Shown in pieces: positions 129 through 64,000 of a stretch of 64,000 nt of DNA (position 1 is its first letter; the number at the start of each line of letters is the position of its first letter). A model generated the notes under the pieces. That model was not told the DNA's origin. It did no database searches and saw only the letters and a program-made list of their open reading frames with translations. Both the position numbers and the translations under genes were made by a program. Source of the stretch: a virus (Duplodnaviria > Caudoviricetes); IMG/VR virus record IMGVR_UViG_2935109043_000001, positions 1 to 64,000 of that record; one strand, 5' to 3'.

Positions 129-203
129 GCCCCAGATTCGTGGGCGGCCTGGTACATCCCTAGCTGATGGGGCGCCAGGCCGCCATGGACTCGACACCTG
201 ACC

Positions 204-467
204 TCAGGCGTGAGCGATCTCCTGCAACAGCGCGTCGAGGAACTCAGGGTCGATGTCCTCGCGCAGACCAATCCGCGCGCATGTCGTGCCGGCGGCGTCC
301 AGCAGATCGCGGATGGTGTCGTATCCGGGGTGGAGGCGTTGGAGCTGTTGCACGTGCGGGGTGGCTTCCTCGGCGCGGTCGATGAGTGCGCTGATCTCGC
401 GAGCGTTGAGGTGGGTGTTGCCGGTGGCGGCGAGGGCTCGGTCCACAGCCCGGTCGTAAGCGTTCAT
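204..467 (-). CDS. hypothetical protein
   Basis: 87-aa ORF with plausible codon usage. Confidence 0.5.
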   Translation of the reverse strand: MNAYDRAVDRALAATGNTHLNAREISALIDRAEEATPHVQQLQRLHPGYDTIRDLLDAAGTTCARIGLREDIDPEFLDALLQEIAHA

Positions 468-657
468 GACCGTTTACGGTAGCTGGGCGTCGTCCGGTCC
501 GGGGCAGAAACCGCAGGTTCCTTGCTTCGCTGTCGGCGGTTCCCTAAAGCCTACCGCTGAGCGGGACCGTAACGTGCCCAAGGGGCCTTAGGAGCGAATG
601 CTCTGAAGTTGCTCAAGCGGCGACCGTTCGACCCATACCCGTACCGACGATGGACCC

Positions 658-1296
658 ATGAACCTTGGATGGGGACCAATCATCGGAGGGGTGCTCGGCG
701 CGCTGTTAGCAGGCGCGTTCACCCTGCTCGGGCAGCGGTTTGCAAGGCACCGCCAACTAGAGGACCACAAGCACGCTCGGCAGCTTCACAAGGAAAGCCT
801 GCTGCACAGTGCGGTAGTCCCGCACGAGGACCGGCTGTTCACGCTACGCAAGGAGGCGGGGGAGAGGTTCATCAAGGCGGCGATGGGCGTCATGCCGATC
901 TCCGAGTACGCCTTGGCTCTCGCCGGCATGTACGAGCGGTGGGACGACGACGATGTGAAGCCGGGTGTGGCGACGACGCACACCTCTCGCGCTGACTGGG
1001 CGCCCCCGGTGGACTTGCGGGCGGCGATCCCCAAGGCGGATCGCCTGACGGACCTGGTCGCCGCCGGGGCGCTGTTGACCCCGGCGCAGCTTCAGAACCT
1101 TACGGAGACAGCGAGGCAGATCATCCTTGCGGCCTACGACGTCACGGACACCCGCCCGTACATCGACGAGGGTGCAGACCCGACGACCTTTGTTGTCGGG
1201 CGGATTCAGGAGTACATCAAGCTGGTGGACGGTTTCGCTGAGCAGTTGGCTGAGCAACTCGACGCACGCGATCGAGTGAAGGTGGCCAAGGGCTAG
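658..1296 (+). CDS. membrane-anchored hypothetical protein (moron-like)
   Basis: N-terminal TM helix GPIIGGVLGALLAGAFTLLG; TTA codon at 706-708. Confidence 0.7.
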   Translation: MNLGWGPIIGGVLGALLAGAFTLLGQRFARHRQLEDHKHARQLHKESLLHSAVVPHEDRLFTLRKEAGERFIKAAMGVMPISEYALALAGMYERWDDDDVKPGVATTHTSRADWAPPVDLRAAIPKADRLTDLVAAGALLTPAQLQNLTETARQIILAAYDVTDTRPYIDEGADPTTFVVGRIQEYIKLVDGFAEQLAEQLDARDRVKVAKG

Positions 1297-1304
1297 GGTG
1301 ACGC

Positions 1305-1343
1305 GAGGGTGCCCCCGGCCACTTTCCCTGGCCGGGGGCACCC
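1305..1343. terminator. GC-rich hairpin terminator; identical inverted copy at 31205-31243
   Basis: GGGTGCCCCCGGCCA-ctttccc-TGGCCGGGGGCACCC between convergent genes. Confidence 0.8.
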
Positions 1344-1358
1344 GTTCTACGTCTCCAC

Positions 1359-2653: not shown

Positions 2654-3205
2654 ATGGACGACCTCAACGCCCGCGCCGCCGCAGTCTTCGGAGGGGCCAA
2701 GCACTTCCCCAGGTGGCCCTACGACGTGACCGGCATCGACTACCTCCTGCGCGAGAAGGACCCCGAGCGCTTCCGCCGCGACCTCGCCGTCCTGACTACC
2801 AAGCGGTACGCCATCGTGGAATGGGCCGAGCTCTACAGCCTGAAGAAGAGCAGCGTGAAGTGCTGCCCCCTGTGGCTCACCCACAGAACCAGCCGGCGAT
2901 GCGCATGGGACAGCGACTGCCAAAGCGGCGGCCACCCTGACAGGTCATGGCTCGACCATGCCATCTGCTGGCTGCGCAACGGCCGACCCGCCGTCATCAC
3001 CTCCGCTCCTTACGAGGTGAGCGACAAAGACCAGCAGCGTCACCTCTGGTGGCGTAAGGCGCACCCCACTCTGCGCGTCCAACAGGGGGCAGGCTGGTAC
3101 GGCCACGGAACCACTCAGATCGTCATGTGGAACACAACGCGCATCGAGCACGTCGCCCCGGCCAGCAACATCGATGACCCCCGCACGTTCATGCACCAGT
3201 CATGA
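2654..3205 (+). CDS. hypothetical protein
   Basis: RBS GAGGAG, MDDLNAR...; stop overlaps the recombinase start. Confidence 0.65.
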   Translation: MDDLNARAAAVFGGAKHFPRWPYDVTGIDYLLREKDPERFRRDLAVLTTKRYAIVEWAELYSLKKSSVKCCPLWLTHRTSRRCAWDSDCQSGGHPDRSWLDHAICWLRNGRPAVITSAPYEVSDKDQQRHLWWRKAHPTLRVQQGAGWYGHGTTQIVMWNTTRIEHVAPASNIDDPRTFMHQS

Positions 3206-4224
3206 CCGACCACCTGCCCGCCCAAGCGAGCCCTCTGCTCCCCGCTGAGTACAACGACGAGCTCCGCGCCCGCATTGCCGCGCTCGACACCGCGTCCGAC
3301 ACCCACGCCGCCGACCAGCGCCCCGACAACACCACCCGCGCCTACGCTGCCGACTGGAAGACCTGGACCGCCTTCTGCACCCAGTTCGGCATCCCCGTCA
3401 CCGCCGCCACCCGAGGCACCCTCCGCGCCTTCGTCGACTACCTCTGGAACCACGAACACCGCGCCTACACCACCATCGACCGCAAACTCGCCGGGATCAC
3501 CGTCACCCTCCGCCGCCCGCCCTACAACCTCGTCCTCAACCCCGACGACACCACCGCCGCCCGCGAACTCCTCAAGGACTACCGCCGAGCCGCAGAACAA
3601 GCCGGAGAACCACCCCGAGGACGAGGCAAAGCACCCGCCATGCGCCTCATCACCCTCCGGGAAATCGTCGCCACATGCGACACCGACATCTTCGGGCTCC
3701 GCGACCGCGCCATGCTCCTCGTCGGCTTCGCCATCGCCGCCCGCCGCGCCGAACTCGCCGGACTCCGCCTCCGCAACATCTGCGACGACGACAACGGACT
3801 CCTCATCCACGTCCGCGTCTCCAAAACCGACCCCCGCACCGTCCCCGTCCCCTACGGCTCCCACCCCGACACCTGCCCCGTCCGAGCCTGGAAAGCCTGG
3901 GCCGAAGCGGCGGACATCACCGACCCTGACAGGCACGCCTTCCGCCGCATCCACCACACCGGAGCTGTCCAGCCGCACGGCTTGTCTCCGCAGCGCGCCG
4001 GCGACATCATCACCGCGGCCGGCCTGCGTGCTGGCTGCGAGGAGCTGTTCACCGGGCATTCTGTCCGCTCCGGTCTCGCTACCGAGGCCCGGCGGCAGGG
4101 CAAGGACCGCAAGGCCATCGCGGCGATCACCGGGCACAAGGAGAACTCGAAGATCCTCGACGGCTACATGCAGGTCGTGGACCGGTGGAGCGAGGAGGAC
4201 AACGCCCTGGTCGGCCTCATGTGA
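3202..4224 (+). CDS. tyrosine recombinase (Cre-like resolvase/integrase)
   Basis: RDRAMLLVGF..ARRAEL, SKTD, GHSVRSG, ITGH, GYM catalytic motifs. Confidence 0.9.
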   Translation: MTDHLPAQASPLLPAEYNDELRARIAALDTASDTHAADQRPDNTTRAYAADWKTWTAFCTQFGIPVTAATRGTLRAFVDYLWNHEHRAYTTIDRKLAGITVTLRRPPYNLVLNPDDTTAARELLKDYRRAAEQAGEPPRGRGKAPAMRLITLREIVATCDTDIFGLRDRAMLLVGFAIAARRAELAGLRLRNICDDDNGLLIHVRVSKTDPRTVPVPYGSHPDTCPVRAWKAWAEAADITDPDRHAFRRIHHTGAVQPHGLSPQRAGDIITAAGLRAGCEELFTGHSVRSGLATEARRQGKDRKAIAAITGHKENSKILDGYMQVVDRWSEEDNALVGLM

Positions 4225-4242: not shown

Positions 4243-5301
4243 GTGGTGGTCGGTAAGGGAGGCGTTGTGGTGTACGAGGTGCGGTCGGTGCGGAATCTCG
4301 CGGCGCTGGTGGAGAAGGTCGCGCCCCGGGACCGGGATGAGTGGGAGACGCGGCAGCCGGTGCTGCTGCGGCGGGGTTCGCCGCGGCGGGACGTGTGGGA
4401 GCAGGTGTCCCGGTCTCGTGCCAACCAGCTGTGGATGGTGGTCGGCATGTTCGACCGTGCCGTTCAGCATCCGTCGATGCCGGAGCGCACCCGTACCCGC
4501 GGCATGGATCAGTTGTTCACGTGGGCTGCCCTGAACGCGTTCTGGGAGCTGGCCGTGCCGGGCGAGTTGCGGGCGCGGGCGGAGGATCGGGGGAAGCGGC
4601 TGCCGGTGGCGTCGCAGCGGATGGTGCGGGACTGCCTGGCGATCCTCGCCCGCCTGGTCGTGCCGGAGCGCCGGGTACGGCTGCCGAAGTTGCCGCAGGC
4701 GCCGGCGCGGGCGGTGACACGGCCGGATCAGGAACAGGAGTTGCTGCACCATCTGCTGCGGCTGGCGGCGGATGGGCCGGCGGGTGGGTTCGTGTGGCAG
4801 CAGCGGCAGGCGGATGCCCGTGTGCGTGCGTTGGCGGTGGCTGGGGTGGCGGTGGATACGCGGTCGCGGGTGTCGGAGCTGGCGGCGATCCGTATGTCGG
4901 ATCTGGGGGAGGGGCTTAGGTGGGTGCGGGTGCGGCGGCGTCCGCAGAACAGTGCGCATCTGCCGGTGGTCGAAGAGGAGCTGCCGTTGTCGAGGGCGAC
5001 GCGGGAGGCGTTGGGTCGGTGGTTGGAGGTGCGGGAGCGGTTGGTGGCTGGGTTGGAGGGTGGCCGGGTGGAGGCGTTGTGGGTGCGGGTGTCGCCGTAT
5101 CCGTTGCGGGCGGGGGAGCCGGAGGGTCTGCCGTTGTCGGATCAGCGGTTGCGGAAGGCGTATACGCGGGGTGTGCGGTCGTTGAATTCGGTGATGGCGG
5201 GTGTGGTGGGGTGGGAGCCGTTGCCGGTGTCGTTGGAGTCGTTGCGGCGGGCGGTGGTGCCGCAGGAGGGGGTGGTGTTGGAGTTGGTGGGTGACGTGTG
5301 A
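4243..5301 (+). CDS. degenerate tyrosine-recombinase-like protein
   Basis: Box-I-like DTRSRVSELAAIRMSDL; ends at SLESLRRA with no HxxR/GH/Y. Confidence 0.55.
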   Translation: MVVGKGGVVVYEVRSVRNLAALVEKVAPRDRDEWETRQPVLLRRGSPRRDVWEQVSRSRANQLWMVVGMFDRAVQHPSMPERTRTRGMDQLFTWAALNAFWELAVPGELRARAEDRGKRLPVASQRMVRDCLAILARLVVPERRVRLPKLPQAPARAVTRPDQEQELLHHLLRLAADGPAGGFVWQQRQADARVRALAVAGVAVDTRSRVSELAAIRMSDLGEGLRWVRVRRRPQNSAHLPVVEEELPLSRATREALGRWLEVRERLVAGLEGGRVEALWVRVSPYPLRAGEPEGLPLSDQRLRKAYTRGVRSLNSVMAGVVGWEPLPVSLESLRRAVVPQEGVVLELVGDV

Positions 5302-6803: not shown

Positions 6804-7625
6804 ATGGCCACGGCCAGCGAGGCCCCCGCCACCATGGCGGAGGGCCCCACCACGCACACCCCGAACCAGAACACGTACGGCTACACCCGTGAGCAGCAGA
6901 TCGAGGCCCTGCACAAGCTGCGGGCCCCCTTCGACCCGAAGGAGATCCGCTTCCTGCCCCGCATCTGGTGCAAGGCATGCAAGGACTCTCGCGGTCGAGG
7001 TTGCGACCGGCACACCTTCACCTCGTGCACCAAGTGCAAGCAGAGGATGCCGCAGGGCGGCCACATCGACCTCCAGTTCGTCGGGCACGCAGAGGCCACC
7101 AACCGGCTGTTGAACGTCGACCCGTTCTGGGACTGGGAGCCGCTCACCGTCGACGAGCGGGGCCTGCCGCAGGTCGACGGCTACCGGGGGTTGTGGATTC
7201 GCCTCACGGTGTGCGGCATGACCCGCCTCGGCTACGGCCACGCCGGCGACAAGACCGGCGGCGACGCCGTGAAGGAAGTCATCGGCGACGCCATCCGCAA
7301 CGCCGGTATGCGCTTCGGGATGGCGCTGGACCTGTGGACCTCCTCCGATCTGATCATCTTGGAGTCGGGAGAGGCACCGGAGACCGGCACCGCGCAGCCG
7401 CAGAAGCCCGCTGCCGCTGACGGGCCGTTCGAGAGGCTGAAGGCGCAGGTCCGCAAGGGCTGGGACAACCAGGTGGCCCTCATCGACATCCGCAGGGACG
7501 CCAAGAAGCAGGGCTTCAACGACCAGCCCGTCCCAGGCCCCGACGGTACGCAGATCACCTTCGACCAGCTCCTCGCCGACCGCATCGAGCAGCTCGCCCA
7601 GCAGCCGAAGGCGGACGCCGCATGA
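6804..7625 (+). CDS. Rad52/Sak-family single-strand annealing protein
   Basis: FVGHAEATNRLLNVDPFWDW, LWIRLTVCG.TRLGYG, KEVIGDAIRNAGMRFG. Confidence 0.8.
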   Translation: MATASEAPATMAEGPTTHTPNQNTYGYTREQQIEALHKLRAPFDPKEIRFLPRIWCKACKDSRGRGCDRHTFTSCTKCKQRMPQGGHIDLQFVGHAEATNRLLNVDPFWDWEPLTVDERGLPQVDGYRGLWIRLTVCGMTRLGYGHAGDKTGGDAVKEVIGDAIRNAGMRFGMALDLWTSSDLIILESGEAPETGTAQPQKPAAADGPFERLKAQVRKGWDNQVALIDIRRDAKKQGFNDQPVPGPDGTQITFDQLLADRIEQLAQQPKADAA

Positions 7626-8728
7626 CTGCCAACCTGATCGTCGAAGGGTTCCACGGGCCCGGCGGCTGGGCCGAAGGCCGGCGCATCCTCTGCCTCACCA
7701 CCCAAGCCATCGGCATGGAATGGGACGCCGCCGCCTGCGCCACCGCCACCGCCGCCGGACACACCGTCATCCGCACCGACGTCGCCGCCTACCCCACCGC
7801 CCCGTTCAAGGGCCGCATCGTCGGCAAGGTCGACTCGCCTCCGTGCCAGGCATGGTCGCGGGCCGGTAAGGGCCTCGGCCTGGTCGACCAGCCGCTCGTC
7901 CACCAGGCCGTCGAAGACCTCTCCCGAGGCCGCGACACCCGCGCCCAGCTCCTCACCGCCTGCAAGGACGAGCGGTCCCTGCTCGCGGCGGAGCCGATGC
8001 GCTGGCACCACGACCTGCGGCCCGAGTGGATCTGCATGGAAGAGGTCCCTGGCGTGTTGCCACTGTTCCAGCAGTACGCGCAGATCCTCCGCGGCTGGGG
8101 CTATTCGGTGTGGGTCGGCATCCTGAACGCCGCCGACTATGGCGTTCCCCAGACCCGCCGTCGCGCCATCCTCATAGCGTCCCGCCTTCGCAACGTCACC
8201 GCACCGGACCGCACCCACGCCGAGTATCCAGCCGACGACCTCTTCGGAGACCGCCTCCTACCCTGGGTGTCCATGGCTGAGGCCCTCGATCTGCCCGAAG
8301 GCATCGTCATCAACACCCGCGGGGAACGGCGTACTGCTGGCGGAAACAACTTCACTGCTGACGGTCCGTCCTGGGCGCTGACCGAGAAGGCCCGGTCTTG
8401 GTGGGTTCTTCGCCAAGGAGCCCGATCAAACGCCACCACCCGTCGCCTGGACCAGCCCGCCGCCACCATCGTGGCCGGACACTCGCGTCGCGACTACCAG
8501 TGGCAGACCGTTGGCGATGGCCCCCAGCAGCGACGGCCTCTCGCCTTGGCGGAAGCCGCGGTCCTTCAGGCGTTCCGCTCCGATTTCCCGTTCCAGGGCA
8601 GCGAGTCCAAGGCCTTCCAACAGATCGCAAACGCCGTCCCGCCCATGCTCGCTGCTCACGTTCTCAGTGCGGCAACTGGGCTGCCGATGCCCGCCGCGCA
8701 GCCCGCCACCTTTGCCTGCGCCGCCTGA
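7622..8728 (+). CDS. DNA cytosine-5 methyltransferase
   Basis: F.GPGG, SPPCQ, MEEV, LNAADYGVPQTRRR, QIANAVPP motifs. Confidence 0.92.
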   Translation: MTANLIVEGFHGPGGWAEGRRILCLTTQAIGMEWDAAACATATAAGHTVIRTDVAAYPTAPFKGRIVGKVDSPPCQAWSRAGKGLGLVDQPLVHQAVEDLSRGRDTRAQLLTACKDERSLLAAEPMRWHHDLRPEWICMEEVPGVLPLFQQYAQILRGWGYSVWVGILNAADYGVPQTRRRAILIASRLRNVTAPDRTHAEYPADDLFGDRLLPWVSMAEALDLPEGIVINTRGERRTAGGNNFTADGPSWALTEKARSWWVLRQGARSNATTRRLDQPAATIVAGHSRRDYQWQTVGDGPQQRRPLALAEAAVLQAFRSDFPFQGSESKAFQQIANAVPPMLAAHVLSAATGLPMPAAQPATFACAA

Positions 8729-13386: not shown

Positions 13387-13397
13387 GGAGCCACGCC

Positions 13398-14147: not shown

Positions 14148-14148
14148 A

Positions 14149-14167
14149 GTGATTGCCCCGCAATCAC
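14149..14167. promoter_or_regulatory. parS-like palindrome 1
   Basis: GTGATTGC-CCC-GCAATCAC. Confidence 0.8.
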
Positions 14168-14303
14168 CTGAAACACCTCCGGAACCGGCCCATACACAGC
14201 CACTTTGGGCGTTCAGCCCCGGGCCGCTATCAGTCCTGGAACGCCGTGACGGATAAGCTCACCCGCTGAGACCCGCCATCGGCACCACCCACCCGGAGAT
14301 TCC

Positions 14304-15719: not shown

Positions 15720-15731
15720 TGTGGAGACGTC

Positions 15732-47187: not shown

Positions 47188-47197
47188 CCCACACCCA

Positions 47198-49615: not shown

Positions 49616-49682
49616 ACCTGCGAACCCGAACCATGAACTGCTCAACCGACACCTGCACCCGAACCGCTCTGGTTCGCGAACC
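49249..49682. repeat. cluster of 12-bp palindromes GGTTCGCGAACC and many GAACC half-sites
   Basis: Exact copies at 49249, 49321, 49345, 49671; variants near 49276, 49399, 49474. Confidence 0.8.
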
Positions 49683-52214: not shown

Positions 52215-52225
52215 CCCGAGAGGAG

Positions 52226-54642: not shown

Positions 54643-55272
54643 ATGCCTACGACGCTCCTCACCCCTGACCAGCTCGACCAGCAGGCCGCCGCCCTCTACG
54701 ACACCGCGGCGTGGCAGCAGATCGTCTCCGGCTGGACTCTCACCGCCCCCGAACCCCAGCCGTACACCGGCAACCGGCCCGTCGAGCAGACCACCGTCGG
54801 GGACTGGCGGGACCTCCTCAACGGCACCGTCGAAGACCTCATCGCCACCGCCACCACAACCCTCCCCCCAGCCGCACCCGCCGAACGGCCCCTCCCCGGC
54901 AGGCTCGGTGCGATCCTCCCCGACCGGCTCCACGCCTGGCGGCGCATCGGCCAGCCCGACATCCGGCCCAGCGTCCAGCTTGCTTACGCCCGCCACCTCC
55001 TCGTGGCATGGGGCTGGCAGAACCGCCCGTACCGGCTCCGCGACGGCTGGGGAGCCCGCTGCCTGTGCGGGGCGCTGCTGTCCGCCCACCGTCTCGGCTA
55101 CGGCAGCCTCGACACTGCGAACCGGTCTGCTGCGTGGCTGATGACGGGGCTGCGGCATGAGGGGTGGGCGGGTTTGATCGGCGAGTGGAATCGTGCGCCG
55201 GGCCGCACGGCGGGGCAGGCTCTCGCCCTGGTCGACACGGTCACGGGATGGGCGGCGCAGGCGGGGGAGTAG
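54643..55272 (+). CDS. DUF6197-like protein
   Basis: WGW......CLCGA...WNRAPGRT. Confidence 0.65.
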   Translation: MPTTLLTPDQLDQQAAALYDTAAWQQIVSGWTLTAPEPQPYTGNRPVEQTTVGDWRDLLNGTVEDLIATATTTLPPAAPAERPLPGRLGAILPDRLHAWRRIGQPDIRPSVQLAYARHLLVAWGWQNRPYRLRDGWGARCLCGALLSAHRLGYGSLDTANRSAAWLMTGLRHEGWAGLIGEWNRAPGRTAGQALALVDTVTGWAAQAGE

Positions 55273-56539: not shown

Positions 56540-57031
56540 ATGAGCGCATCCAAAGCACAGCAAGCCGTCACCGCCGAACGCCGCGCCAAGCTCATCCGCA
56601 TGCGGCTCGCCGGCCACGAGTTCGACGAGATCGCCCGCGTCCTTGAGTACTCGTCGGCGTCCGCCGCATCCAAAGACATGATCCGCGTCCTGGAGAAGCG
56701 CCGCGACGAACAGGACGCCGAGGTCAGCGTCTACCGGCAGCAGGAAGGCGACCGCCTCGACGCGCTCCTCCGCGCCCACTGGGACGCTGCCACAAGTGGC
56801 GACGACCCAAAGGCCGCCGATCTCGTCCTGAAGATCATGGACAGGCGCGCCAAGCTCATGGGCCTCGACATGCCCGTCCGCGCCGAAGTGTCCGGCCCCG
56901 ACGGCGGCGCCGTCCCCCTCGGCACCGGAGCCCTCGCCGAACTCCAACAGCTCATCTCCATCGCCGGACAGACCGGCGACCCCGACACGCTCCTCGACGG
57001 CGAGCAGGACACCGGTGACAACACCGACTGA
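56540..57031 (+). CDS. terminase small subunit
   Basis: N-terminal HTH, RRAKLMGLD, EVSGPDGG; immediately precedes TerL. Confidence 0.8.
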   Translation: MSASKAQQAVTAERRAKLIRMRLAGHEFDEIARVLEYSSASAASKDMIRVLEKRRDEQDAEVSVYRQQEGDRLDALLRAHWDAATSGDDPKAADLVLKIMDRRAKLMGLDMPVRAEVSGPDGGAVPLGTGALAELQQLISIAGQTGDPDTLLDGEQDTGDNTD

Positions 57032-59525
57032 CCTCGCCGAGGACGCCGTCCTCCAGCACTACCGGACCCTGCCCGTACCCGAACGCCGCAGGGTCGCCCG
57101 GCGTGCCAGCCCCGAACTCCGCCTCCGCCTCGCCTGGGTCGAGCGGCAGATCGCCATGGACCGCTCACCCGGCAGCCTCGCCGCCGTCCTCACCGAAGGC
57201 CGCGAGAAGCAGGCCCGACACCTCGACATGATCGATGCGGTGTTCATGCGGATCGCGGCAGGCGAACGCATGCAGGTGATGATCACGTGCCCACCCCGGC
57301 ACGGGAAGGCGCTGGCGCTGGACACTCCGATAGCCACGCCAACAGGCTGGTCGACGATGGGCGAACTCAAGGTCGGCGATCAGGTCTTCGACGAGCAGGG
57401 TCGTCCCTGCAAGGTCACCTGGACGTCGCCCACCTGGTACGACCGGCCCTGCTTTGACGTGGTCACGGACAGCGGAGGCCACATCGTCGCCGACTACGCG
57501 CACGAGTGGAAGGCCAACCTGGACCGGCGGTGCCCGGACCGGCTTTACAACACCTGCGACCTCGCCCGCCCGCGCGGCAAGCAGGCCCTTATCTGGACGA
57601 CGGGTGCCCTCCAGCTCCCGGACCAAGACCTCCTCGTCCCGCCCTACTTGCTGGGCGCCTGGCTTGGAGACGGGCGCTCCCTGGACGGCGGTATCACCGC
57701 CGAGCCCGAAGATGCGAAGCACCTGCGATCCGTGATCCACGACCTCGGGTACGAGACAGTCCAGTGGTCCAACCCGACGGTCTTCGGGGTGAACGGGCTG
57801 CGTAGCCAGCTCCGTGAACTTGGCGTGCTCGGCAACAAGCATGTGCCGGCGAAGTACCTGCGGGGGTCCGCCGCGCAGCGCAGAGCCCTGCTCCAAGGTC
57901 TGGTGGACACTGATGGGTACGTGGCCAAGGACGGCCAAGTTGAGTTCTGCAGCATCAAGCGTGACCTCGCAGAAGCCGTCCAGGAGCTGGTGTACAGCCT
58001 GGGCGGGAAGGCCTCACTCATCGTCGGTGACGCGATGCTCAACGGGCGCTTCATCAGCAAGAAGTACCGCGTCATGTTCTACATGGAAGGGGTCGCCCGG
58101 CTGCCCCGTAAGGCGGTCCTGTGCCGCAGCGGGATACGTGCCAACCGGCACTACGTGATGGCCATGCGCCGCAGCGCCACGGCCACCCGCTGTATCGAAG
58201 TGGACTCGCCGTCGCACCTCTTCCTGGCTGGCCGAGCGATGATCCCCACCCACAACAGCCAGCGGGCATCACGCTGGGGTCCCCTCTGGTACCTGCGACG
58301 CAACCCCACCGCCCGCGTCATGCTCGCCTCCTACGGCGCCGACCTCGCCGACGACCACGGCCGCTGGGTCCGCGACCAGCTCCGCGACTACGCACCCACC
58401 CTCGGCATCCGCCTCGACGACGGCAGCCGGGCCGCCAACCGCTTCGACCTCGAAGCGCCCCGCAACTCGTCCGTGCGAGGCGGCATGGTCACCGCTGGCG
58501 TCGGGGGGTCTCTGAATGGCAAGGGATTTTCGCTAGGCATCATCGACGACCCGTTCAAGGGCTCCGACGACGCCAACAGTCCAGCTCAGCGCGACCGCGT
58601 GTGGAACTGGTACCAGTCGGTCTTCTACACCCGCCGGGCCCCCGGCGCCTCCATGATCTTGATCAACACCCGCTGGCACGAAGACGACCTCTCAGGGCGC
58701 ATCCTCTCCGTCGAACCCGAGAACTGGACCCTCATCGACCTCCCCGCCCTCGCCATGTCCGCCGACGACCCCCTCGGACGCGCCCCCGGTGACGCCCTGT
58801 GGCCCGAGCAGTACGACGCCGAGGAGCTGGCCCGCACCAAACGCGCGGTCGGCGAACGCGTCTGGTGGGCGCTCTACCAGCAGCAGCCCCGCCCCCTCGA
58901 AGGCGGCGTGTGGCAGTGGGCGTGGATCACCGCCAACCGCATCAGCCCCGCCGCGATGCGCGGTATTGACCTGTCTCGCATCGTCGTTGCCATCGACCCA
59001 TCTGGCGGCGCTGGCGGAGCGAACGATGAGACCGGCATCGTCGCCGCTGGCCGCACCCGCGATGGCCAGTACTACGTGCTGGAGGACCGCTCCGGCCGGC
59101 ACGGCGCCAACGCGTGGGGCCGCGAAGCGTGCCTCCGCGCCGTCGAGCTGCGCGCGGACGCGTTCGTCGTCGAGACGAACTTCGGCGGCGACATGACGAA
59201 GCAGGTACTCATCCAGGCGTGGCAGGAGCTTGAGCGGCAGGACGCCACCGCAGGTATGCCCATGCCGCGGATCGTGGAGGTCGTCGCCAAGCAGGGCAAG
59301 CGACTGCGTGCGGAGCCGATCGCTCAGCTCTACGAGCAGGGACTCGTCCATCACGTGGGGGAGTGGCCGGCGCTGGAGACGCAGATGGTGACGTGGCTGC
59401 CTGGCATGGACTCCCCGGACCGCATGGACGCCGCGGTGCACGCGCTGACTGAGCTGGCCGATCCGGCGTCGACGGGCCTGGGTACGGGCGCCTACCAGGA
59501 CCAGCGGCTGCGGGGCAGGCGGTGA
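57015..59525 (+). CDS. terminase large subunit containing an intein
   Basis: PPRHGK/S Walker A split by intein; IIDDP; TRWHEDDL; VAIDP; SPDRMDA. Confidence 0.95.
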   Translation: MTTPTDLAEDAVLQHYRTLPVPERRRVARRASPELRLRLAWVERQIAMDRSPGSLAAVLTEGREKQARHLDMIDAVFMRIAAGERMQVMITCPPRHGKALALDTPIATPTGWSTMGELKVGDQVFDEQGRPCKVTWTSPTWYDRPCFDVVTDSGGHIVADYAHEWKANLDRRCPDRLYNTCDLARPRGKQALIWTTGALQLPDQDLLVPPYLLGAWLGDGRSLDGGITAEPEDAKHLRSVIHDLGYETVQWSNPTVFGVNGLRSQLRELGVLGNKHVPAKYLRGSAAQRRALLQGLVDTDGYVAKDGQVEFCSIKRDLAEAVQELVYSLGGKASLIVGDAMLNGRFISKKYRVMFYMEGVARLPRKAVLCRSGIRANRHYVMAMRRSATATRCIEVDSPSHLFLAGRAMIPTHNSQRASRWGPLWYLRRNPTARVMLASYGADLADDHGRWVRDQLRDYAPTLGIRLDDGSRAANRFDLEAPRNSSVRGGMVTAGVGGSLNGKGFSLGIIDDPFKGSDDANSPAQRDRVWNWYQSVFYTRRAPGASMILINTRWHEDDLSGRILSVEPENWTLIDLPALAMSADDPLGRAPGDALWPEQYDAEELARTKRAVGERVWWALYQQQPRPLEGGVWQWAWITANRISPAAMRGIDLSRIVVAIDPSGGAGGANDETGIVAAGRTRDGQYYVLEDRSGRHGANAWGREACLRAVELRADAFVVETNFGGDMTKQVLIQAWQELERQDATAGMPMPRIVEVVAKQGKRLRAEPIAQLYEQGLVHHVGEWPALETQMVTWLPGMDSPDRMDAAVHALTELADPASTGLGTGAYQDQRLRGRR
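57309..58256 (+). mobile_element. 316-aa intein with LAGLIDADG homing endonuclease (Ala1, class 3-like)
   Basis: ALALDTPIATPTGW start, AHEW, LLGAWLGDG, LLQGLVDTDG, RCIEVDS, IPTHN/S. Confidence 0.9.
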
Positions 59526-60214: not shown

Positions 60215-62023
60215 GTGGGCCTCATCTCCGGAGCCCGGCAACTCGTGATCGACGCGTGGAGCTGGCTGAACTACAAGCCGATCTACGCCGACACCCGAGG
60301 CATGCCCCACCGTCGGGCTTTCCCCGAGGCCGCCGCCACCTGGGTGCCAGCCGCCGACGAACGACGACTTGCCGCGTACAAGCTCCTCGCTGCGTACACC
60401 AGCAACCAGGCCGGCGAGCTCGCCGCCCTCCGCGACGGCGACGAGGCCCGTGACCGGCGGGAATTCGGCGACCCGTCCATGTTCGTCGACACCCTCGTCG
60501 CTCACGTCCTCGGCGACGGGCAGCGCATCGTCGTCCCCGGCGCCGAAGCCGACGACGACAGCACCGACGAGCAAGCCGTCCGCGTGCAGACCCTCCTCCG
60601 CGACTGGGCGGAACGCGAACTCCTCCCCATGCGGATGCTCCAGACCGAGCAGAAGGCCGTGCCGCTCGGCGACGGCGTGTACCTCCTCCACTGGGACCAG
60701 GACAAGCGTCGCGTCCGCGTCCGCACCTACGACCCGGGCTTCTACTTCCCGGTCCTTCCCGAGGACGGCGACGGATCTGACTATCCCGAGCGTGTGCACC
60801 TCGCCTGGGAGCTGCCTGAGGACCCGAAGCGGGGCGTGAAGGCGCGGGTGCGCCGCATCACCTACGAACTTGGATGGATCGAACAGGGCGAGAGGGATGT
60901 AGTCCGAGGTGGCCTCGAAGACGCCGACAGTGACCAAGAGCCCTCGGTGCAGCCGCGGCAGTACCCGTGGAACGACGAGCCGTCCTACCGCACCTGCTAC
61001 CTGACCGACGCGACGTGGGAGCTCGGCGACCTCACCGGGCCCGTCGATGTCGACTCCCTGCCGATGGACCGTGCTTCCTTCGCGGAAGGCGTGGATGGTG
61101 TGGTACTCGACCGACGCGACCTCATGATCGATTTCGTGCCGCTTATCCACGTCCCCAACACCGTCCCCCCGGCCGAGGAGCACTGGGGGCAGTCCAGCCT
61201 CGCCAAGGCCCTCCAGGTCTTCGACGAGCTCGCCGGCGCCGACACCGACTCGTCCCGCGCGTCCGCGACGACCGGATCGCCGATCATCCACCTGTCCGGC
61301 AAGGCCGCCTCCGGCCGCAACCAGCTCGCCGTCGGCCCCGGCATGATCCTGGAGACTGGCGAAGGGGGGCGCATGGACACCGTCAACACCGCCCCGCAGC
61401 TTCAGGAACTCCGCAGCCACCGCGCCGACCTCGCCGACCGGGCCGCGGCCGTCGTTCGTCTCCCCGCTGTAGCCCTCGGCACCCTCGACCCCACTAAGGT
61501 CCCCTCCGGCTACGCCCTCGCCCTGTCCCTCGGGCCCCTCGACTCTCTGATCTCCTCGATGCGTCTCGCCCGCGCGCACAAGGACCAGCTGCTCCTCAAG
61601 TTCGTGCAGCGCCTTCACCTCGCTGGGCAGCATCCCGAATGGGAAGGCGTCACCCCGCAGCCGGCGATCCTCGTCCGCGGCCCCTACACGCCCACCGACC
61701 AGGCCGCCGTGCTGGAGCAGGTCACCACCGGAGTCGCCGGGGGAGTGCTTTCCCTGGAGACGGGGGTGCGGATGCTGCAAGAGGCCGGCTACCCGATCGA
61801 GGACACCGAGCAGGAGATACGGCAGATCGAGTCCCGCGCGTTTGCCGCGGCGAAGGATTTGGCGGATGCCCTCGGTAACGCCACCGCGGTCGCTGAGTTC
61901 CTCGACCGCAAGGCCCCCGAGGCTGAGGAGGCGCCCGACGTTCGACTCCCGCCGATCCCCGCCAACGCGGCCGAGGCCGACGCCGCCGACCCCCTCCAGG
62001 ACGGCGACGACGATGAGGCGTAA
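60215..62023 (+). CDS. phage portal protein
   Basis: Follows TerL; LGDG.Y...WD, YDPG.YFP, SGYAL, LSLETGV. Confidence 0.8.
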   Translation: MGLISGARQLVIDAWSWLNYKPIYADTRGMPHRRAFPEAAATWVPAADERRLAAYKLLAAYTSNQAGELAALRDGDEARDRREFGDPSMFVDTLVAHVLGDGQRIVVPGAEADDDSTDEQAVRVQTLLRDWAERELLPMRMLQTEQKAVPLGDGVYLLHWDQDKRRVRVRTYDPGFYFPVLPEDGDGSDYPERVHLAWELPEDPKRGVKARVRRITYELGWIEQGERDVVRGGLEDADSDQEPSVQPRQYPWNDEPSYRTCYLTDATWELGDLTGPVDVDSLPMDRASFAEGVDGVVLDRRDLMIDFVPLIHVPNTVPPAEEHWGQSSLAKALQVFDELAGADTDSSRASATTGSPIIHLSGKAASGRNQLAVGPGMILETGEGGRMDTVNTAPQLQELRSHRADLADRAAAVVRLPAVALGTLDPTKVPSGYALALSLGPLDSLISSMRLARAHKDQLLLKFVQRLHLAGQHPEWEGVTPQPAILVRGPYTPTDQAAVLEQVTTGVAGGVLSLETGVRMLQEAGYPIEDTEQEIRQIESRAFAAAKDLADALGNATAVAEFLDRKAPEAEEAPDVRLPPIPANAAEADAADPLQDGDDDEA

Positions 62024-62105
62024 CCGGGCAGGGGCAACACCTCCCGCATCTTGTGCTTTCCTTGATCTAGGCGCGGGGCCTGACTGTCCGGGAGGACTCG
62101 GCACT

Positions 62106-62822
62106 ATGCGTCGCCCCACGCACCCCCGCCACACCACGACCGCCTGGGCGCACCCGTACAGCGGACTCGCCAGCATGTTCGTGTGCTACGCCGACGGCGG
62201 CGACCCGCCGACCCCCGCACCGCAGGCCCCCAAGCCCGCACCCCCGGCCGAGCCGGTACAGGTCACCGTCACCCAGGAAGACCTCGCCAAGCTCGCCGCC
62301 AAGGAGAAGGACCAGGGGCGCCGCGCCGGCGCCAAGGCCGCCCTGGAGGACTTCGCCACCGAACACGGCTTCAGCAACGTGGACGACGCCAAGGCGTTCA
62401 TCGCCGCCGCCCGCCAGGCGCAGGAAGCCGCCCTGTCCGAGCAGGAGAAGCGCGAGAAGGCCCTCGCCGAACGTGAGGCCGCCGCCGAAGCCCGCGAGCA
62501 GGCAGCCCTCGCCCGCGAGCGTGTCGCCTCCCGCCGTGCGCTCCTCGCCGGCCTCGGCGCCACCGGCGACGACCTCGACGACGCCACCCAGCTCCTCCGC
62601 GCCGACGACGACGCCGACGACGCGGCACTCACCGCCGCAGCCGAAGCCCTCAAGGCCCGCCGGCCCGAGCTGTTCGGCGTCCCCCCGACCTCGCAGGGAC
62701 TCCCGGCCGCCCCCTCCGGCGGCCCCGCAGGAGGACCCCCCGCACGCCAGACCCCCGTCGGCAAGCCCGGCGACCGCGGACGCGAAATGCTCCGCCGCCG
62801 CGGCAAGCTCCCCGCCGCCTAA
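62106..62822 (+). CDS. capsid scaffolding protein
   Basis: Charged helical protein, LSEQEK, RPELFG; between portal and capsid genes. Confidence 0.7.
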   Translation: MRRPTHPRHTTTAWAHPYSGLASMFVCYADGGDPPTPAPQAPKPAPPAEPVQVTVTQEDLAKLAAKEKDQGRRAGAKAALEDFATEHGFSNVDDAKAFIAAARQAQEAALSEQEKREKALAEREAAAEAREQAALARERVASRRALLAGLGATGDDLDDATQLLRADDDADDAALTAAAEALKARRPELFGVPPTSQGLPAAPSGGPAGGPPARQTPVGKPGDRGREMLRRRGKLPAA

Positions 62823-62919
62823 AGCCGCACCACCGCACAACGGGACCACGCCCCTCTCCTCGTGGACGCGCCACCACCGGTGACGCCGCACCCACAGCAC
62901 AACCCTTGAGGAGAGGGCC

Positions 62920-63669
62920 GTGAACGACTTCCAGCCCATGACCGTCCTTCAGGAGGAAGCCACCGCCGACCGGCCGTGGCTCGCCTCCCTCGTCGGCACC
63001 AACGACACCAACACCATCGCCCTCGACCTGACGAAGTTCGTTGAGGGCGTCCACTACGAGCGCGGCACCTTCGGGCAGCCCCGTAACGTCCTCAAGTCCG
63101 GGCTCCCCCTCGGCAAGGTCACCGCCAGCGGCCTCTACGCCCCCTACGCGGGACCCACCAGCGAAGTCCAGACCGTCACCGTCACCGGCTCCCCGACCGG
63201 CGGCACCTACACCCTCACGTTCTCCGGGCAGACCACCGCCGGCATCCCGTACAACGCGACGGCCGCCCAGGTGAAGACGGCCCTGGAAGCCCTGTCCAAC
63301 ATCAACCCCGGCGACGTCGCCGTCACCGGCGGACCGCACCCGGCCACCCCCGTCGTCGTCACGTTCACCGGCCAGTACATGGGCGACGACCAGGCCCAGA
63401 TGACCGCCTCGGCGACGAACCTGACCGGCGGCACCAGCCCCGCCGTCACCGTCACCACCACCACGGCAGGCGGCGGCGCCGGCGCCAGCGACGGCACTCA
63501 GGTCTTCGCCGGGTTCCTCGCCACCGAGTCCCTCTTCGCGCCCGGCTCCACCAAGACCTCCGGAGCGCTCCTGTGGTTCGGCGAGGTCTTCGCCGCCAAG
63601 TGCCCCATCCCGCTCGACCCCACCGACATCACCGACACCGCTCCCGGCGTCAACATCCACTTCCGGTAA
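62920..63669 (+). CDS. head decoration protein with inserted beta-rich domain
   Basis: LKSGLPLGKVTASGLYAPY...DGTQVFAGFL split by an EVQTVTVTG.PTGGTYTLTF insert. Confidence 0.7.
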   Translation: MNDFQPMTVLQEEATADRPWLASLVGTNDTNTIALDLTKFVEGVHYERGTFGQPRNVLKSGLPLGKVTASGLYAPYAGPTSEVQTVTVTGSPTGGTYTLTFSGQTTAGIPYNATAAQVKTALEALSNINPGDVAVTGGPHPATPVVVTFTGQYMGDDQAQMTASATNLTGGTSPAVTVTTTTAGGGAGASDGTQVFAGFLATESLFAPGSTKTSGALLWFGEVFAAKCPIPLDPTDITDTAPGVNIHFR

Positions 63670-63684
63670 GGAGCCCACCCAGCC

Positions 63685-64000
63685 ATGAGCACCACTCTCG
63701 ACAGGCTCCTCCAGAACGTCACGCCGGAGGACATCAACGCCTATATCAACGGTCTGCCCACTCCGAACACGTACGCCCTCACGCAGAGCGTCATCCCGGA
63801 GCGGAAGATCTACGGGCCGAAGTTCCGCATCGAGTCGAACAAGCGCCGCGTCAACGCCGCGAAGTTCCGCGCCTTCGACACCCCGCACGCGCTGGCGAGG
63901 CGCCAGGCCGAGCGGGTCGTCAACGAGGGCATGCTGCCCCCGGTCGGCCAGACCCTGGAGATGGGGGAGCTGTCCCTGATCCTCCACCACGCCCGCCGCG
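63685..64000 (+). CDS. major capsid protein (partial, 5' end)
   Basis: RBS AAGGAG; MSTTLDRLLQNVTPED...AAKFRAFDT...LPPVGQ; open to the window end. Confidence 0.7.
   Translation, partial: MSTTLDRLLQNVTPEDINAYINGLPTPNTYALTQSVIPERKIYGPKFRIESNKRRVNAAKFRAFDTPHALARRQAERVVNEGMLPPVGQTLEMGELSLILHHARR

What the first reader, a model, noticed from the sequence alone, without database searches (positions are those of the whole stretch)
129..64000. Phage, plasmid and conjugative modules in one element
Seen: phage head genes (56.5-64 kb); a plasmid-type maintenance set (Cre-like recombinase, rep, DciA-like, parB, parA, parS); a second iteron-bearing initiator; and an AICE-like operon (NUDIX, Spd-like TM protein, TraB-like ATPase). 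No host genes interrupt them, and three DUF6197-like paralogues (19077, 24940, 54643) and tRNA-like elements occur on both sides. Known: Streptomyces conjugation needs only the FtsK-like TraB, and pSAM2-type AICEs carry a Nudix gene. Inference: a temperate phage that can also persist as a plasmid and spread by mycelial conjugation.
Basis: partly seen in the sequence, partly recalled or inferred. Interest (0 to 1): 0.8.

Follow-up and report, generated by a model that had tools for sequence, protein, structure and literature searches.

The report
Streptomyces phage-plasmid with conjugation module
The window is most of an 86-kb Streptomyces element that is at once a tailed phage, a partitioned plasmid and a carrier of a conjugation-type DNA pump, a kind of element already described for plasmid-phage pZL12.

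Summary
The window is the first 64 kb of a one-contig, 86,209-base virus record. It carries a Cre-like recombinase, an HTH Rep candidate, DciA, ParB/ParA with four parS palindromes, and a lambda-O-like initiator with iterons inside its gene. It also has NUDIX, a membrane-HTH protein, an FtsK-fold TraB-like translocase, and TerS, TerL, portal, scaffold, decoration and capsid genes. No tRNA-like element was found.

The element is collinear with plasmid-phage pZL12 almost all round and 91-92% identical to plasmids pCQ3, pCQ4 and an S. albidoflavus plasmid. Papers citing Zhong 2010 and Chen 2012 describe such elements as replicating, conjugating and forming virions.

Of 12 family members sampled, 11 hold a large P-loop translocase next to the terminase. 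Near-identical backbones carry unrelated translocase alleles, so this is a swappable cassette in a fixed slot, not a nested AICE.

The membrane-HTH gene ends in an array of 24 CGAACC words. The word follows the protein's HTH class, and it ranked first in 6 of 6 predicted loci. This scan has noted both the element type and such arrays before on other DNA.

The parts
3202..4224 (+). Cre-like tyrosine recombinase (likely dimer resolution or integration)
   Evidence: Pfam Phage_integrase E 7.6e-13. Best solved relatives are Cre, residues 10-327, E 2.6e-9. 77% identical to pZL12.36c.
4243..5301 (+). Second, degenerate recombinase-like protein
   Evidence: Weak Phage_integrase match, E 4.4e-4, below the cut-off. 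39% to the pZL12.34c region and 94% to the S. albidoflavus plasmid.
6804..8728 (+). Single-strand annealing protein (6804-7625) and C5 cytosine methyltransferase (7622-8728)
   Evidence: phrog_3290, E 2.2e-48. DNA_methylase, E 1.2e-26.
11962..14147 (+). HTH putative plasmid initiator (11962-13386) and DciA-like helicase-loader candidate (13398-14147)
   Evidence: HTH_36/HTH_20 matches and DciA E 4.1e-9. 33% and 44% to pZL12.20c and pZL12.18c. No iterons found nearby, so the Rep role is inferred.
14148..16599 (+). parB (14304-15449), parA (15705-16580) and four parS-like palindromes (14148-14171, 15587-15610, 15700-15723, 16576-16599)
   Evidence: Pfam ParB_N/HTH_ParB and AAA_31 at E 3.4e-37. 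Repeat family D2 and inverted repeats I2-I4.
19002..19499 (+). DUF6197-like paralogue (borderline)
   Evidence: PF19698, E 1.3e-4, 22.6 bits against a 24.6 cut-off.
24940..25302 (+). DUF6197 paralogue
   Evidence: PF19698, E 1.1e-19.
31380..33820 (-). Cargo: type III polyketide synthase (31380-32432) and MmyB-like regulator (32996-33820), vioA/vioB-like
   Evidence: Chal_sti_synt_N 1.4e-26 and MLTR_LBD 1.1e-13. 73% and 65% to pZL12.100 and pZL12.99. VioA (350 aa) and VioB (272 aa) on an ~85-kb plasmid are 95% identical to pCQ3/pCQ4 proteins (PMC4924298, passages).
38033..39079 (+). ATP-dependent DNA ligase
   Evidence: DNA_ligase_A_M, E 5.1e-23.
41564..42943 (-). Lambda-O-like replication initiator with origin iterons inside its own gene (42463-42542)
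   Evidence: HTH_36, 3.5e-9. PHROGs replication initiation / O-like, best 2.4e-11. 22-bp unit, 3.6 copies (D1 and I1). 30% to pZL12.82.
47133..47696 (+). NUDIX hydrolase
   Evidence: PF00293, E 1.3e-19. 57% to pZL12.76c.
48122..49615 (+). Membrane protein with a disordered linker and a C-terminal helix-turn-helix (the 'Spd-like TM protein')
   Evidence: Hydrophobic helices. AlphaFold model: helical N-terminal part, residues 334-435 at pLDDT 30-36, and a three-helix C-terminal domain 438-495 at pLDDT 85-90. Weak TetR_N match, E 0.019. 26% to pZL12.73c.
49179..49796 (.). Array of 24 CGAACC/GGTTCG words, including four GGTTCGCGAACC palindromes, over the linker codons and the spacer after the stop codon
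   Evidence: Top-ranked word cluster of the whole 86-kb record. Palindrome found 4 times, against 0 of 100 shuffles with 4 or more. Copies lie on both strands and in all three frames; 8 lie after the stop.
50169..52214 (+). 681-aa protein of unknown fold, partner of the translocase (homologue of pZL12.72c)
   Evidence: 52% to pZL12.72c. No Pfam, NCBIfam or PHROG family. The Atlas gives only unnamed actinobacterial clusters. It lies upstream of the translocase in 12 of 12 IMG/VR loci.
52184..54412 (+). FtsK/TraB-like dsDNA translocase (probable start 52235, 725 aa)
   Evidence: Walker A GAQGSGKT. NCBIfam plasmid_TraB E 9.4e-7, but 27.7 bits against a cut-off of 800. hhalign to pCQ4 TraB: probability 99.6, E 4.2e-24. 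AlphaFold pLDDT 84.6. Foldseek's ten best hits are FtsK motor domains, E about 1e-13. 74% to pZL12.71c.
54643..55272 (+). DUF6197 paralogue between the translocase and the packaging genes
   Evidence: PF19698, E 2.3e-14.
56540..59525 (+). Small-terminase-position gene (56540-57031) and large terminase (57015-59525, 836 aa) holding a 316-aa intein (about 57309-58256)
   Evidence: Terminase_6N/6C and LAGLIDADG_3 at 4.5e-7. Compared with the inteinless S. albidoflavus TerL, the insert is residues 99-414. It sits between GK and S of the Walker A motif and ends in HN before Ser.
60215..64000 (+). Portal (60215-62023), scaffold (62106-62822), head decoration (62920-63669), and the major capsid protein from 63685 (it runs to 64740 of the record)
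   Evidence: PHROGs. Gene calls for the whole record. Tail, tape-measure and lysis genes follow at 64-84.5 kb and are collinear with pZL12.

Best explanation
The window is about three quarters of an 86-kb Streptomyces phage-plasmid of the pZL12 / pCQ3 / pCQ4 family. It is one replicon with three ways of persisting and moving.

1. Plasmid-prophage. It is kept by an HTH initiator with a DciA-like partner, ParA/ParB acting on four parS palindromes, and a Cre-like recombinase. The domains and sites are shown; their roles are inferred.
2. Lytic phage. It has a lambda-O-like initiator whose origin iterons lie inside its own gene. A complete siphovirus-type packaging, head, tail and lysis train follows. 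The genes are shown; the lytic role of the second initiator is inferred by analogy with P1 and lambda.
3. Streptomyces-type dsDNA conjugation. It carries an operon of a membrane-HTH protein, a 681-aa partner and an FtsK-fold TraB-like translocase, next to the terminase genes. The fold and the homology to the pZL12 tra region are shown. Transfer itself is inferred from what papers report for pZL12.

The translocase position is a fixed slot in the family, filled by unrelated alleles even in near-identical backbones. It is therefore a selected, exchangeable cassette and not a chance insertion.

The CGAACC array in and after the 3' end of the membrane-HTH gene is most likely the docking site of that protein's own C-terminal HTH. 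This would tie the element's DNA to the membrane beside the pump. That reading is inferred from covariation.
For: One replicon:
- The window is bases 1-64000 of a single 86,209-base contig, catalogued as a virus record.

Family:
- Megablast gives 92.0% identity over 67% of bases 1-25000 to S. albidoflavus plasmid CP109240. It gives 91.9% to pCQ4 and 91.0% to pCQ3, and 78.4% to phage ZL12 over 51.1-63.6 kb.
- Protein synteny with pZL12 and CP109240 runs round the whole element.
- The portal has relatives in 35 plasmid records, 34 of them covering at least 80% of the query, nearly all of 85-94 kb.

Translocase:
- Walker A motif.
- Homologue profile against pCQ4 TraB: probability 99.6, E 4.2e-24.
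- 23 of 68 homologues match NCBIfam plasmid_TraB and 7 of 68 match Pfam FtsK_SpoIIIE.
- The AlphaFold model (pLDDT 84.6) has FtsK motor domains as its ten best Foldseek hits, then the TcpA coupling protein and EccC.

Fixed slot:
- 11 of 12 sampled elements have a 676-840-aa P-loop protein just upstream of TerS/TerL.
- In pCQ3 and pCQ4 this protein is annotated traA/traB.
- Portals are 48-98% identical among all twelve. The translocases form at least five groups with 29% identity or less, or no BLASTP hit, between groups.
- The window, CP109240 and pCQ3 share portals 97-98% identical yet carry three different groups.
- In IMG/VR, 12 of 12 contigs with a close relative of the translocase have the 681-aa partner upstream, and 11 of 12 have TerS and TerL downstream.

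Literature (passages only).

Array:
- It is the top word cluster of the record. Copies lie on both strands, in all frames and past the stop codon.
- The same HTH class goes with the same word. CGAACC was found in 4 of 4, GAGACC in 3 of 3, CGCATC in 6 of 6 and TGAGCC in 2 of 2.
- In 6 of 6 loci chosen only by HTH similarity, the predicted hexamer ranked first.
Against: - Pfam finds no FtsK_SpoIIIE domain in the translocase.
- A sequence search of solved structures finds nothing significant.
- The NCBIfam TraB score is 27.7 bits against a cut-off of 800. It is a distant relative, not a TraB equivalog.
- No TraB-type clt (8-bp repeats matched to the translocase) was identified.
- Circularity is not shown. 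The contig ends do not overlap. The end lies inside a galE-like ORF that reads only 115 aa across the join, against 320 aa in CP109240. About 1 kb may be missing, or the gene is truncated.
- One of the 12 family members, a Kitasatospora plasmid, has no detectable translocase anywhere in its record. The module is therefore dispensable.
- I could not read Zhong 2010 itself. What was shown for pZL12 comes from citing papers and from recall.
- TerL must splice out an intein to work.
- The HTH fold of the membrane protein rests on a model with overall pLDDT 59 (85-90 only in that domain) and a sub-threshold Pfam hit.
- Three elements with a fifth HTH class (pZL12 among them) show no array. Two more of that class (L024, L032) were counted only for the four known words, each with at most 5 copies in 600 nt.
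Confidence: 0.85

Rival explanations
1. An AICE or small conjugative plasmid inserted by chance into a plasmid-prophage. On this reading the 37-55 kb block is a passenger with its own ends.
For: - The translocase genes are replaced as a block between near-identical backbones. Homology to CP109240 breaks at 49174-49635 and at 50151-54602.
- NUDIX is present in some relatives and absent in others.
Against: - No att-like direct repeats lie around the block. The best are 20-40 nt at 65-85% identity.
- There is no tRNA and no integrase beside the block.
- The same slot is filled in 11 of 12 sampled relatives and in 11 of 12 IMG/VR loci.
- The flanks (DUF6197, TerS) are conserved.
Confidence: 0.04
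2. The FtsK-like pump and its partners serve the phage or plasmid itself and not cell-to-cell mating. Possible roles are spreading prophage or phage DNA between hyphal compartments, segregation into spores, or exclusion of incoming DNA.
For: - Thoma et al. [quoted passage not shown]
- SpdA2/sps of pIJ101 affects stability, not transfer (PMC4170104, abstract and sections 15 and 21).
- The module always sits beside the packaging genes.
Against: [quoted passage not shown]
- pCQ3 and pCQ4 carry TraA/TraB named by NCBI's annotation in the same slot.
- In Streptomyces, transfer and intramycelial spread use the same TraB, so the two roles are not exclusive.
Confidence: 0.1
3. The CGAACC array is the clt, that is, the recognition repeats of the TraB-like translocase. 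Alternatively it is only a by-product of a repetitive linker peptide.
For: - clt loci of Streptomyces plasmids are arrays of short direct repeats bound by TraB (PMC4447253 and PMC3583192, passages).
- The array lies at the head of the tra operon.
- In CP109240, 19 of 22 forward GAGACC copies are in one frame and encode Glu-Thr.
Against: - The translocases of the window and of pZL12 have nearly the same C-terminal winged helix. Yet pZL12 has only 5 CGAACC in the matching 2.1 kb.
- CGCATC arrays go with three different translocase groups but with one HTH class of the membrane protein.
- An IMG/VR locus with the window's translocase type has the other HTH class and 16 CGCATC.
- Against the peptide by-product idea: copies lie on both strands and in all frames and run past the stop codon. 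Genes with the same word also encode different linker peptides.
Confidence: 0.12

Closest known systems
Streptomyces plasmid-phage pZL12 / phage ZL12 (GQ919031; Zhong et al. 2010, J Bacteriol 192:3747; the paper was not held, and is known here from citing papers and recall)
   Same: - About 90 kb, and the same gene order round the element.
- Homologous recombinase (77%), methylase (85%), DciA-like protein, type III PKS (73%), NUDIX (57%), 681-aa protein (52%), translocase (74%), TerL (79%), portal (62%) and tail genes.
   Different: - Only 78% DNA identity, over part of the element.
- ParA has no detectable match.
- The membrane protein is 26% identical, has another HTH class and lacks a word array.
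- The window's TerL carries an intein; pZL12.67c, at 486 aa, does not.
Plasmids pCQ3 (NC_013449), pCQ4 (NC_019307) and S. albidoflavus NBC 01664 plasmid (CP109240)
   Same: - 91-92% identical backbone.
- Portal 97-98% identical to pCQ3 and CP109240.
- pCQ4 TerL also has 836 aa.
- Same PKS cargo.
   Different: - The translocase slot holds other alleles. pCQ3 and pCQ4 have annotated TraA/TraB. CP109240 has a 712-aa protein 26% identical.
- They have other HTH classes and word arrays.
- CP109240 has a DnaB helicase where the window has the O-like initiator.
Phage-plasmid P1 of E. coli (recalled; general description in PMC12282955, passages)
   Same: A plasmid prophage with partition genes, a Cre-type recombinase and separate candidates for plasmid and lytic replication.
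   Different: - P1 has no conjugation genes.
- The passages I saw of the 2025 review treat phage-driven and conjugation-driven mobility as alternatives.
TraB / clt / Spd system of Streptomyces plasmids such as pSVH1 (PMC4447253, passages)
   Same: - A membrane-associated FtsK-like hexameric pump with a C-terminal DNA-recognition domain.
- Membrane 'spread' proteins in the same operon.
- Short-repeat cis sites.
   Different: - The window's pump falls far below the TraB equivalog cut-off.
- No TraB-matched 8-bp repeats were found.
- The partner proteins have no detectable similarity to named families.
SpdA2 / sps of pIJ101 (Thoma et al. 2014, PMC4170104; abstract and sections 15 and 21 read)
   Same: A DNA-binding protein whose specific sites lie inside its own coding region, on a Streptomyces conjugative element.
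   Different: - SpdA is soluble, has 117-163 aa and an N-terminal binding domain. It has 1-3 copies of one conserved 12-bp palindrome.
- Here the protein has 300-870 aa and is membrane-anchored with a C-terminal HTH. There are 9-36 copies of a 6-7-bp word that changes with the HTH class.
- The sps palindrome is absent from the window.
pSAM2-type AICEs (recalled: integrase, RepSA, TraSA and the Nudix protein Pif)
   Same: An FtsK-like translocase and a NUDIX gene lie in one region.
   Different: - No tRNA att site.
- The element is extrachromosomal.
- Orthology of the NUDIX protein to Pif was not tested.

Membership tests
pZL12-type Streptomyces plasmid-phage | Virion gene train collinear with pZL12 | tested here: met
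   TerS, TerL, portal, scaffold, capsid, tape measure and tail genes are 38-79% identical in the same order. PHROGs names them.
pZL12-type Streptomyces plasmid-phage | Plasmid replication and parAB partition genes on the same molecule | tested here: met
   Pfam ParA, ParB, DciA and HTH initiator. parS four times. Single contig.
pZL12-type Streptomyces plasmid-phage | Transfer locus homologous to the FtsK-like pZL12.71c and its neighbours | tested here: met
   74%, 52% and 26% identity to pZL12.71c, 72c and 73c, in the same order.
pZL12-type Streptomyces plasmid-phage | Circular extrachromosomal form, plaque-forming virions, conjugal transfer | not testable with these tools
   The contig ends do not overlap, and the join truncates a galE-like ORF.
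Streptomyces TraB (NCBIfam NF041214, equivalog) | Score at or above the curated cut-off (800 bits) | tested here: not met
   27.7 bits, E 9.4e-7, residues 216-410 only.
FtsK/SpoIIIE-TraB superfamily of dsDNA translocases | RecA-like motor fold with Walker A and B motifs | tested here: met
   GAQGSGKT. G290, K291, D391 and E392 are invariant in 90 homologues. Foldseek's ten best hits are FtsK motors, E 1e-13, TM 0.52-0.61 by target. hhalign to pCQ4 TraB gives E 4.2e-24.
FtsK/SpoIIIE-TraB superfamily of dsDNA translocases | N-terminal membrane part and C-terminal winged-helix DNA-recognition domain | tested here: inconclusive
   The model shows helices 29-165 and a C-terminal helical domain 611-681 with two short strands. 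No Pfam FtsK_gamma match was found in this protein, though a family member's pump matches at E 4.3e-19.
Streptomyces clt (TraB recognition repeats) | Array of about 8-bp repeats that matches the element's own TraB | tested here: not met
   The only strong array (CGAACC) does not follow the translocase type.
AICE (pSAM2 type) | Site-specific integration at a tRNA gene with flanking att repeats | tested here: not met
   0 tRNA. No att-like repeats. Relatives are free plasmids.
SpdA / sps | Small SpdA protein with 12-bp palindrome CGTCACGTGACG in or by its gene | tested here: not met
   0 matches with up to 1 mismatch. The protein here has 497 aa and is membrane-anchored.
Intein with homing endonuclease | In-frame insert in a conserved motif, ending His-Asn before Ser/Thr/Cys, with an endonuclease domain | tested here: met
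   316-aa insert between GK and S of the TerL Walker A motif. It ends THN before S. LAGLIDADG_3 E 4.5e-7. It starts with Ala; splicing was not tested.

The most novel reading that the evidence does not exclude
Streptomyces phage-plasmids and large linear plasmids share an undescribed two-part 'membrane tether'. One part is a membrane protein with a floppy linker and an exchangeable C-terminal HTH. The other part is 9-36 copies of that HTH's own 6-7-bp docking word, written across the linker codons and the spacer after the stop codon.

The HTH and its word array move together as one cassette, independently of the TraB-like pump next to them. On this reading they decide which DNA is held at the membrane transfer or segregation site, acting as a specificity or incompatibility determinant of dsDNA conjugation.
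Probability: 0.4. Interest if true: 0.6.

Novelty: new member of a known kind. Interest (0 to 1): 0.38.

Why it matters
- The element type has been known since 2010, so the main finding adds a member, not a kind.
- It is still a reminder that one replicon can be phage, plasmid and conjugative element at once. The passages I read of a 2025 review on plasmid mobility treat phage and conjugative mobility as alternatives.
- Relaxase-based typing labels 34 of 35 plasmids of this family 'non-mobilizable'.
- Two points are worth a bench test. First, the conjugation pump is a hot-swappable cassette at a fixed site in otherwise near-identical phage-plasmids. Second, the membrane-HTH gene carries its own docking-site array, whose word can be predicted from the HTH class. 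This gives a direct handle on how Streptomyces elements choose the DNA they move or hold.

Tried and rejected
- Zhong 2010 (PMC2897331) is not held. I could not check which three pZL12 genes were needed for transfer or where its replication origin is. Supplements were not consulted.
- Pfam, NCBIfam, PHROGs and the ESM Atlas gave no family for the 681-aa protein.
- A sequence search of solved structures with the translocase gave only chance-level hits.
- No iterons were found beside the first initiator gene.
- A search for TraB-matched repeats elsewhere in the tra region found only G/C-rich runs at the start of the 681-aa gene, in the window and in pZL12. I did not interpret them.
- My homologue profile of the translocase misses the pumps of six family members. 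Their kinship rests on P-loops, weak Pfam hits, one FtsK_gamma match and the depositors' names.
- The nested-AICE reading was rejected.
- PMC13659240 turned out to be irrelevant.
- Read mapping for circular junctions was not tried.
- The complex-prediction job was not used.

Full report
WHAT THE DNA IS

The window is bases 1-64000 of a single 86,209-base contig, which the genome tool describes as a virus record. G+C is 66-72% throughout. I therefore called genes from codon bias, which gave 122 candidate genes on the record.

Megablast of bases 1-25000 against plasmids gave 35 Streptomyces records. The best were S. albidoflavus CP109240 (86,299 bp, 92.0% identity over 67%), pCQ4 of strain W75 (91.9%) and pCQ3 of strain W9 (91.0%). 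Bases 40000-64000 matched only Streptomyces phage ZL12 among 50,697 phage records, at 78.4% over 51.1-63.6 kb.

CHECK OF THE OBSERVATION

Nearly every item is there.

- Maintenance set. There is a tyrosine recombinase (Pfam E 7.6e-13) whose best solved relatives are Cre over almost its full length (E 2.6e-9). There are also an HTH protein in the 'rep' position, a DciA-like protein, ParB and ParA. Four copies of a GTGATTGC-N3-GCAATCAC palindrome flank parB and parA.
- Second initiator (41564-42943, minus strand). It matches HTH_36 and O-like replication-initiator PHROGs. Like lambda O, it carries a 22-bp repeat (3.6 copies) inside its own gene.
- NUDIX is clear (E 1.3e-19).
- DUF6197 occurs three times. 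Two copies are well above Pfam's cut-off and one is just under it.
- Packaging and head genes are confirmed by Pfam and PHROGs.
- Not confirmed: tRNA-like elements. ARAGORN gave 0 and Rfam gave 0 at gathering score.
- I also found no iterons beside the first initiator, so its Rep role rests on position and on 33% identity to pZL12.20c.

THE 'TraB-LIKE ATPASE'

Pfam finds nothing in the 497-, 681- and 742-aa proteins, so this claim needed testing.

- The 742-aa ORF (probable start 52235, 725 aa, as in an identical database protein) has a Walker A motif, GAQGSGKT.
- NCBIfam's plasmid_TraB model matches at E 9.4e-7, but with 27.7 bits against a cut-off of 800.
- An exhaustive search gave 505 relatives at E up to 1e-3.
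- Of 68 aligned relatives, 23 match plasmid_TraB, 11 match EccC models and 7 match Pfam FtsK_SpoIIIE.
- Their profile aligns to the annotated TraB of pCQ4 with probability 99.6, E 4.2e-24.
- An AlphaFold model (pLDDT 84.6) has FtsK motor domains as its ten best Foldseek hits (E about 1e-13). The TcpA coupling protein and EccC follow.

So it is an FtsK-fold translocase distantly related to TraB. It is not a TraB equivalog.

ONE ELEMENT OR A NESTED INSERTION?

tblastn of my gene set against pZL12 and CP109240 shows one collinear order round the element. On pZL12 the FtsK-like pZL12.71c, then 72c and 73c, lie beside the small and large terminase and portal genes, exactly as in the window.

I then read the region upstream of the portal in 10 of the 35 portal-bearing plasmids. 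With pZL12 and the window, that makes 12 elements.

- Eleven of the 12 have a 676-840-aa P-loop protein directly upstream of TerS/TerL. In pCQ3 and pCQ4 it is annotated traA/traB. In others it is named 'type IV secretory system conjugative DNA transfer family protein' or 'DNA translocase FtsK', and one of these has an FtsK_gamma domain (E 4.3e-19).
- The Kitasatospora plasmid has none, either there or anywhere in its record by three searches.
- Portals are 48-98% identical among all twelve. The pumps fall into at least five groups, with 29% identity or less, or no BLASTP hit, between groups.
- The window, CP109240 and pCQ3 have portals 97-98% identical but pumps of three different groups.
- DNA homology between the window and CP109240 breaks exactly at 50151-54602, the two tra genes, and at 49174-49635.
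- In IMG/VR, 12 contigs encode a close relative of the window's pump. All 12 have the 681-aa partner upstream, 11 of 12 have TerS and TerL downstream, and 10 of 12 have the portal.
- No att-like direct repeats bound 37-55 kb.

The conjugation genes are a native module of the family, and an exchangeable one.

WHAT IS KNOWN

I could not obtain Zhong et al. 2010. Passages of papers that cite it give the following.

- pSLE1 was annotated from pZL12, 'a well characterised plasmid' with phage particle genes and ParAB (PMC4487206).
- pZL12 is an extrachromosomally replicating temperate actinophage (PMC7157519).

From recall only: the 2010 paper reported plaques, virions and P1-like largely random ends.

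The passages I saw of a 2025 review of plasmid mobility treat phage-plasmid and conjugative mobility as alternatives and do not mention these elements. I searched for phage-plasmid + Streptomyces + conjugation.

A SECOND LOOK AT THE 'Spd-LIKE' PROTEIN

An unbiased scan for locally clustered words ranked CGAACC/GGTTCG first in the whole record. There are 24 copies in 49179-49796, covering the 3' part of gene 48122-49615 and the spacer after it. The palindrome GGTTCGCGAACC occurs four times, against 0 of 100 shuffles with four or more.

Copies lie on both strands and in all three frames, and 8 lie after the stop codon. The array is therefore not merely a repetitive peptide.

The protein model shows membrane helices, a disordered linker (residues 334-435) encoded by the array, and a confident three-helix C-terminal domain (pLDDT 85-90). 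The overall pLDDT is only 59, and the Pfam HTH hit is below threshold.

The syntenic genes of relatives carry other words:

- GAGACC, 36 copies, in CP109240.
- CGCATC in pCQ3, pCQ4, S. seoulensis and pSAM1 (14, 14, 12 and 9 copies).
- TGAGCC in pSLE1 and S. californicus (19 and 21 copies).
- No array in pZL12, NBC_00842 or S. decoyicus.

The word follows the class of the C-terminal HTH, not the pump group. The window and pZL12 have nearly the same pump C-terminus, but pZL12 has no CGAACC array.

I then used this as a prediction. tblastn with the C-terminal 60-70 residues found the same HTH classes on unrelated proteins of large linear plasmids.

- I read 3 of 7 such hits for the window's class, 1 of 4 non-family hits for the CGCATC class, and 2 of 2 for the GAGACC class.
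- In 6 of 6 loci the predicted hexamer was the top-ranked cluster, again at the 3' end of the gene and beyond its stop. Two of the six are close relatives of each other.
- One IMG/VR locus with the window's pump type has the CGCATC-class HTH (71% identity) and 16 CGCATC copies. Two with the pZL12-class HTH showed at most 5 copies of each of the four words, which were the only ones counted there.

The nearest published parallel I found is SpdA2/sps of pIJ101. SpdA2 is a small soluble protein that binds a 12-bp palindrome lying inside its own gene, and it affects stability rather than transfer (PMC4170104, abstract and sections 15 and 21). That palindrome is absent from the window. A search for SpdA + TraB + repeats + membrane from 2015 onward returned only PMC4447253.

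This scan's own earlier notes describe the same kind of array in membrane-HTH genes of other genomes, one of them with GGTTC, and TraB modules in Streptomyces phages and phage-plasmids. They are unchecked AI notes. I saw them only after my own tests, and I do not count them as evidence.

VERDICT

This one is a new or further member.
- Two things go beyond the literature I could reach: the allele swapping of the pump at a fixed slot, and the HTH-class to word-array rule. Both are computational inferences that need the experiments listed above.

Noticed in passing
window 57309-58256 (within TerL 57015-59525): A 316-aa intein with a LAGLIDADG domain splits the Walker A motif of the large terminase between GK and S. 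It starts with Ala and ends His-Asn before Ser. pCQ4 TerL has the same length (836 aa). The S. albidoflavus plasmid (520 aa) and pZL12 (486 aa) lack the intein.
   Followed up: partly
window 31380-33820 (minus strand): The cargo genes are a 350-aa type III polyketide synthase and a MmyB-like regulator. They match the vioA/vioB pair that makes violapyrones from an ~85-kb plasmid of S. somaliensis (PMC4924298, passages). The pair is conserved from pZL12 to a Kitasatospora plasmid.
   Followed up: partly
window 50239-50260 and 50317-50336: Runs (GGGGC)x4.4 and (CCCCG)x4 lie about 57 nt apart at the 5' end of the 681-aa gene. A similar cluster of GCCCCGCC-type 8-mers sits at the start of the homologous pZL12.72c. 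This could be a G-quadruplex, a hairpin or only Gly/Pro codons.
   Followed up: no
window 39100-45500 versus CP109240 64500-70250: The lytic-type replication module is swapped between near-identical backbones. The window has an O-like initiator with in-gene iterons plus an HTH-TPR regulator. The S. albidoflavus plasmid has a DnaB helicase, a 386-aa protein and a GntR regulator.
   Followed up: partly
window 39773-40861: Two 40-nt hairpin-forming repeats (85% alike) bracket a small cassette of two divergent genes (39891-40286 minus, 40335-40778 plus). A 23-nt inverted repeat lies between the genes. The cassette has no counterpart in pZL12 or CP109240, and its function is unknown.
   Followed up: no
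record bases 85940-86209 and window 1-600: The contig ends inside a galE-like ORF. Joined to base 1 it reads only 115 aa, against 320 aa in CP109240. Either the gene is truncated or about 1 kb is missing from the record. The ends share no overlap.
   Followed up: partly
plasmid records: MOB-suite typing in PLSDB of 35 portal-bearing plasmids of this family 'non-mobilizable', although most carry an FtsK/TraB-type transfer gene. Relaxase-based typing is blind to this transfer mode.
   Followed up: no
L009 (Kitasatospora sp. NBC_01246 plasmid, 91,397 bp): This family member has terminase, portal, capsid and the PKS gene. It has no detectable translocase by three searches of the whole record, so it looks like a natural tra-less variant.
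   Followed up: partly
L015-L019 (large linear Streptomyces plasmids of 198-608 kb): Proteins of 305-866 aa in conjugation-type neighbourhoods end in the same HTH classes as the phage-plasmid membrane proteins. They carry the matching word arrays at their 3' ends, so the HTH-plus-array cassette is shared between phage-plasmids and linear plasmids.
   Followed up: partly
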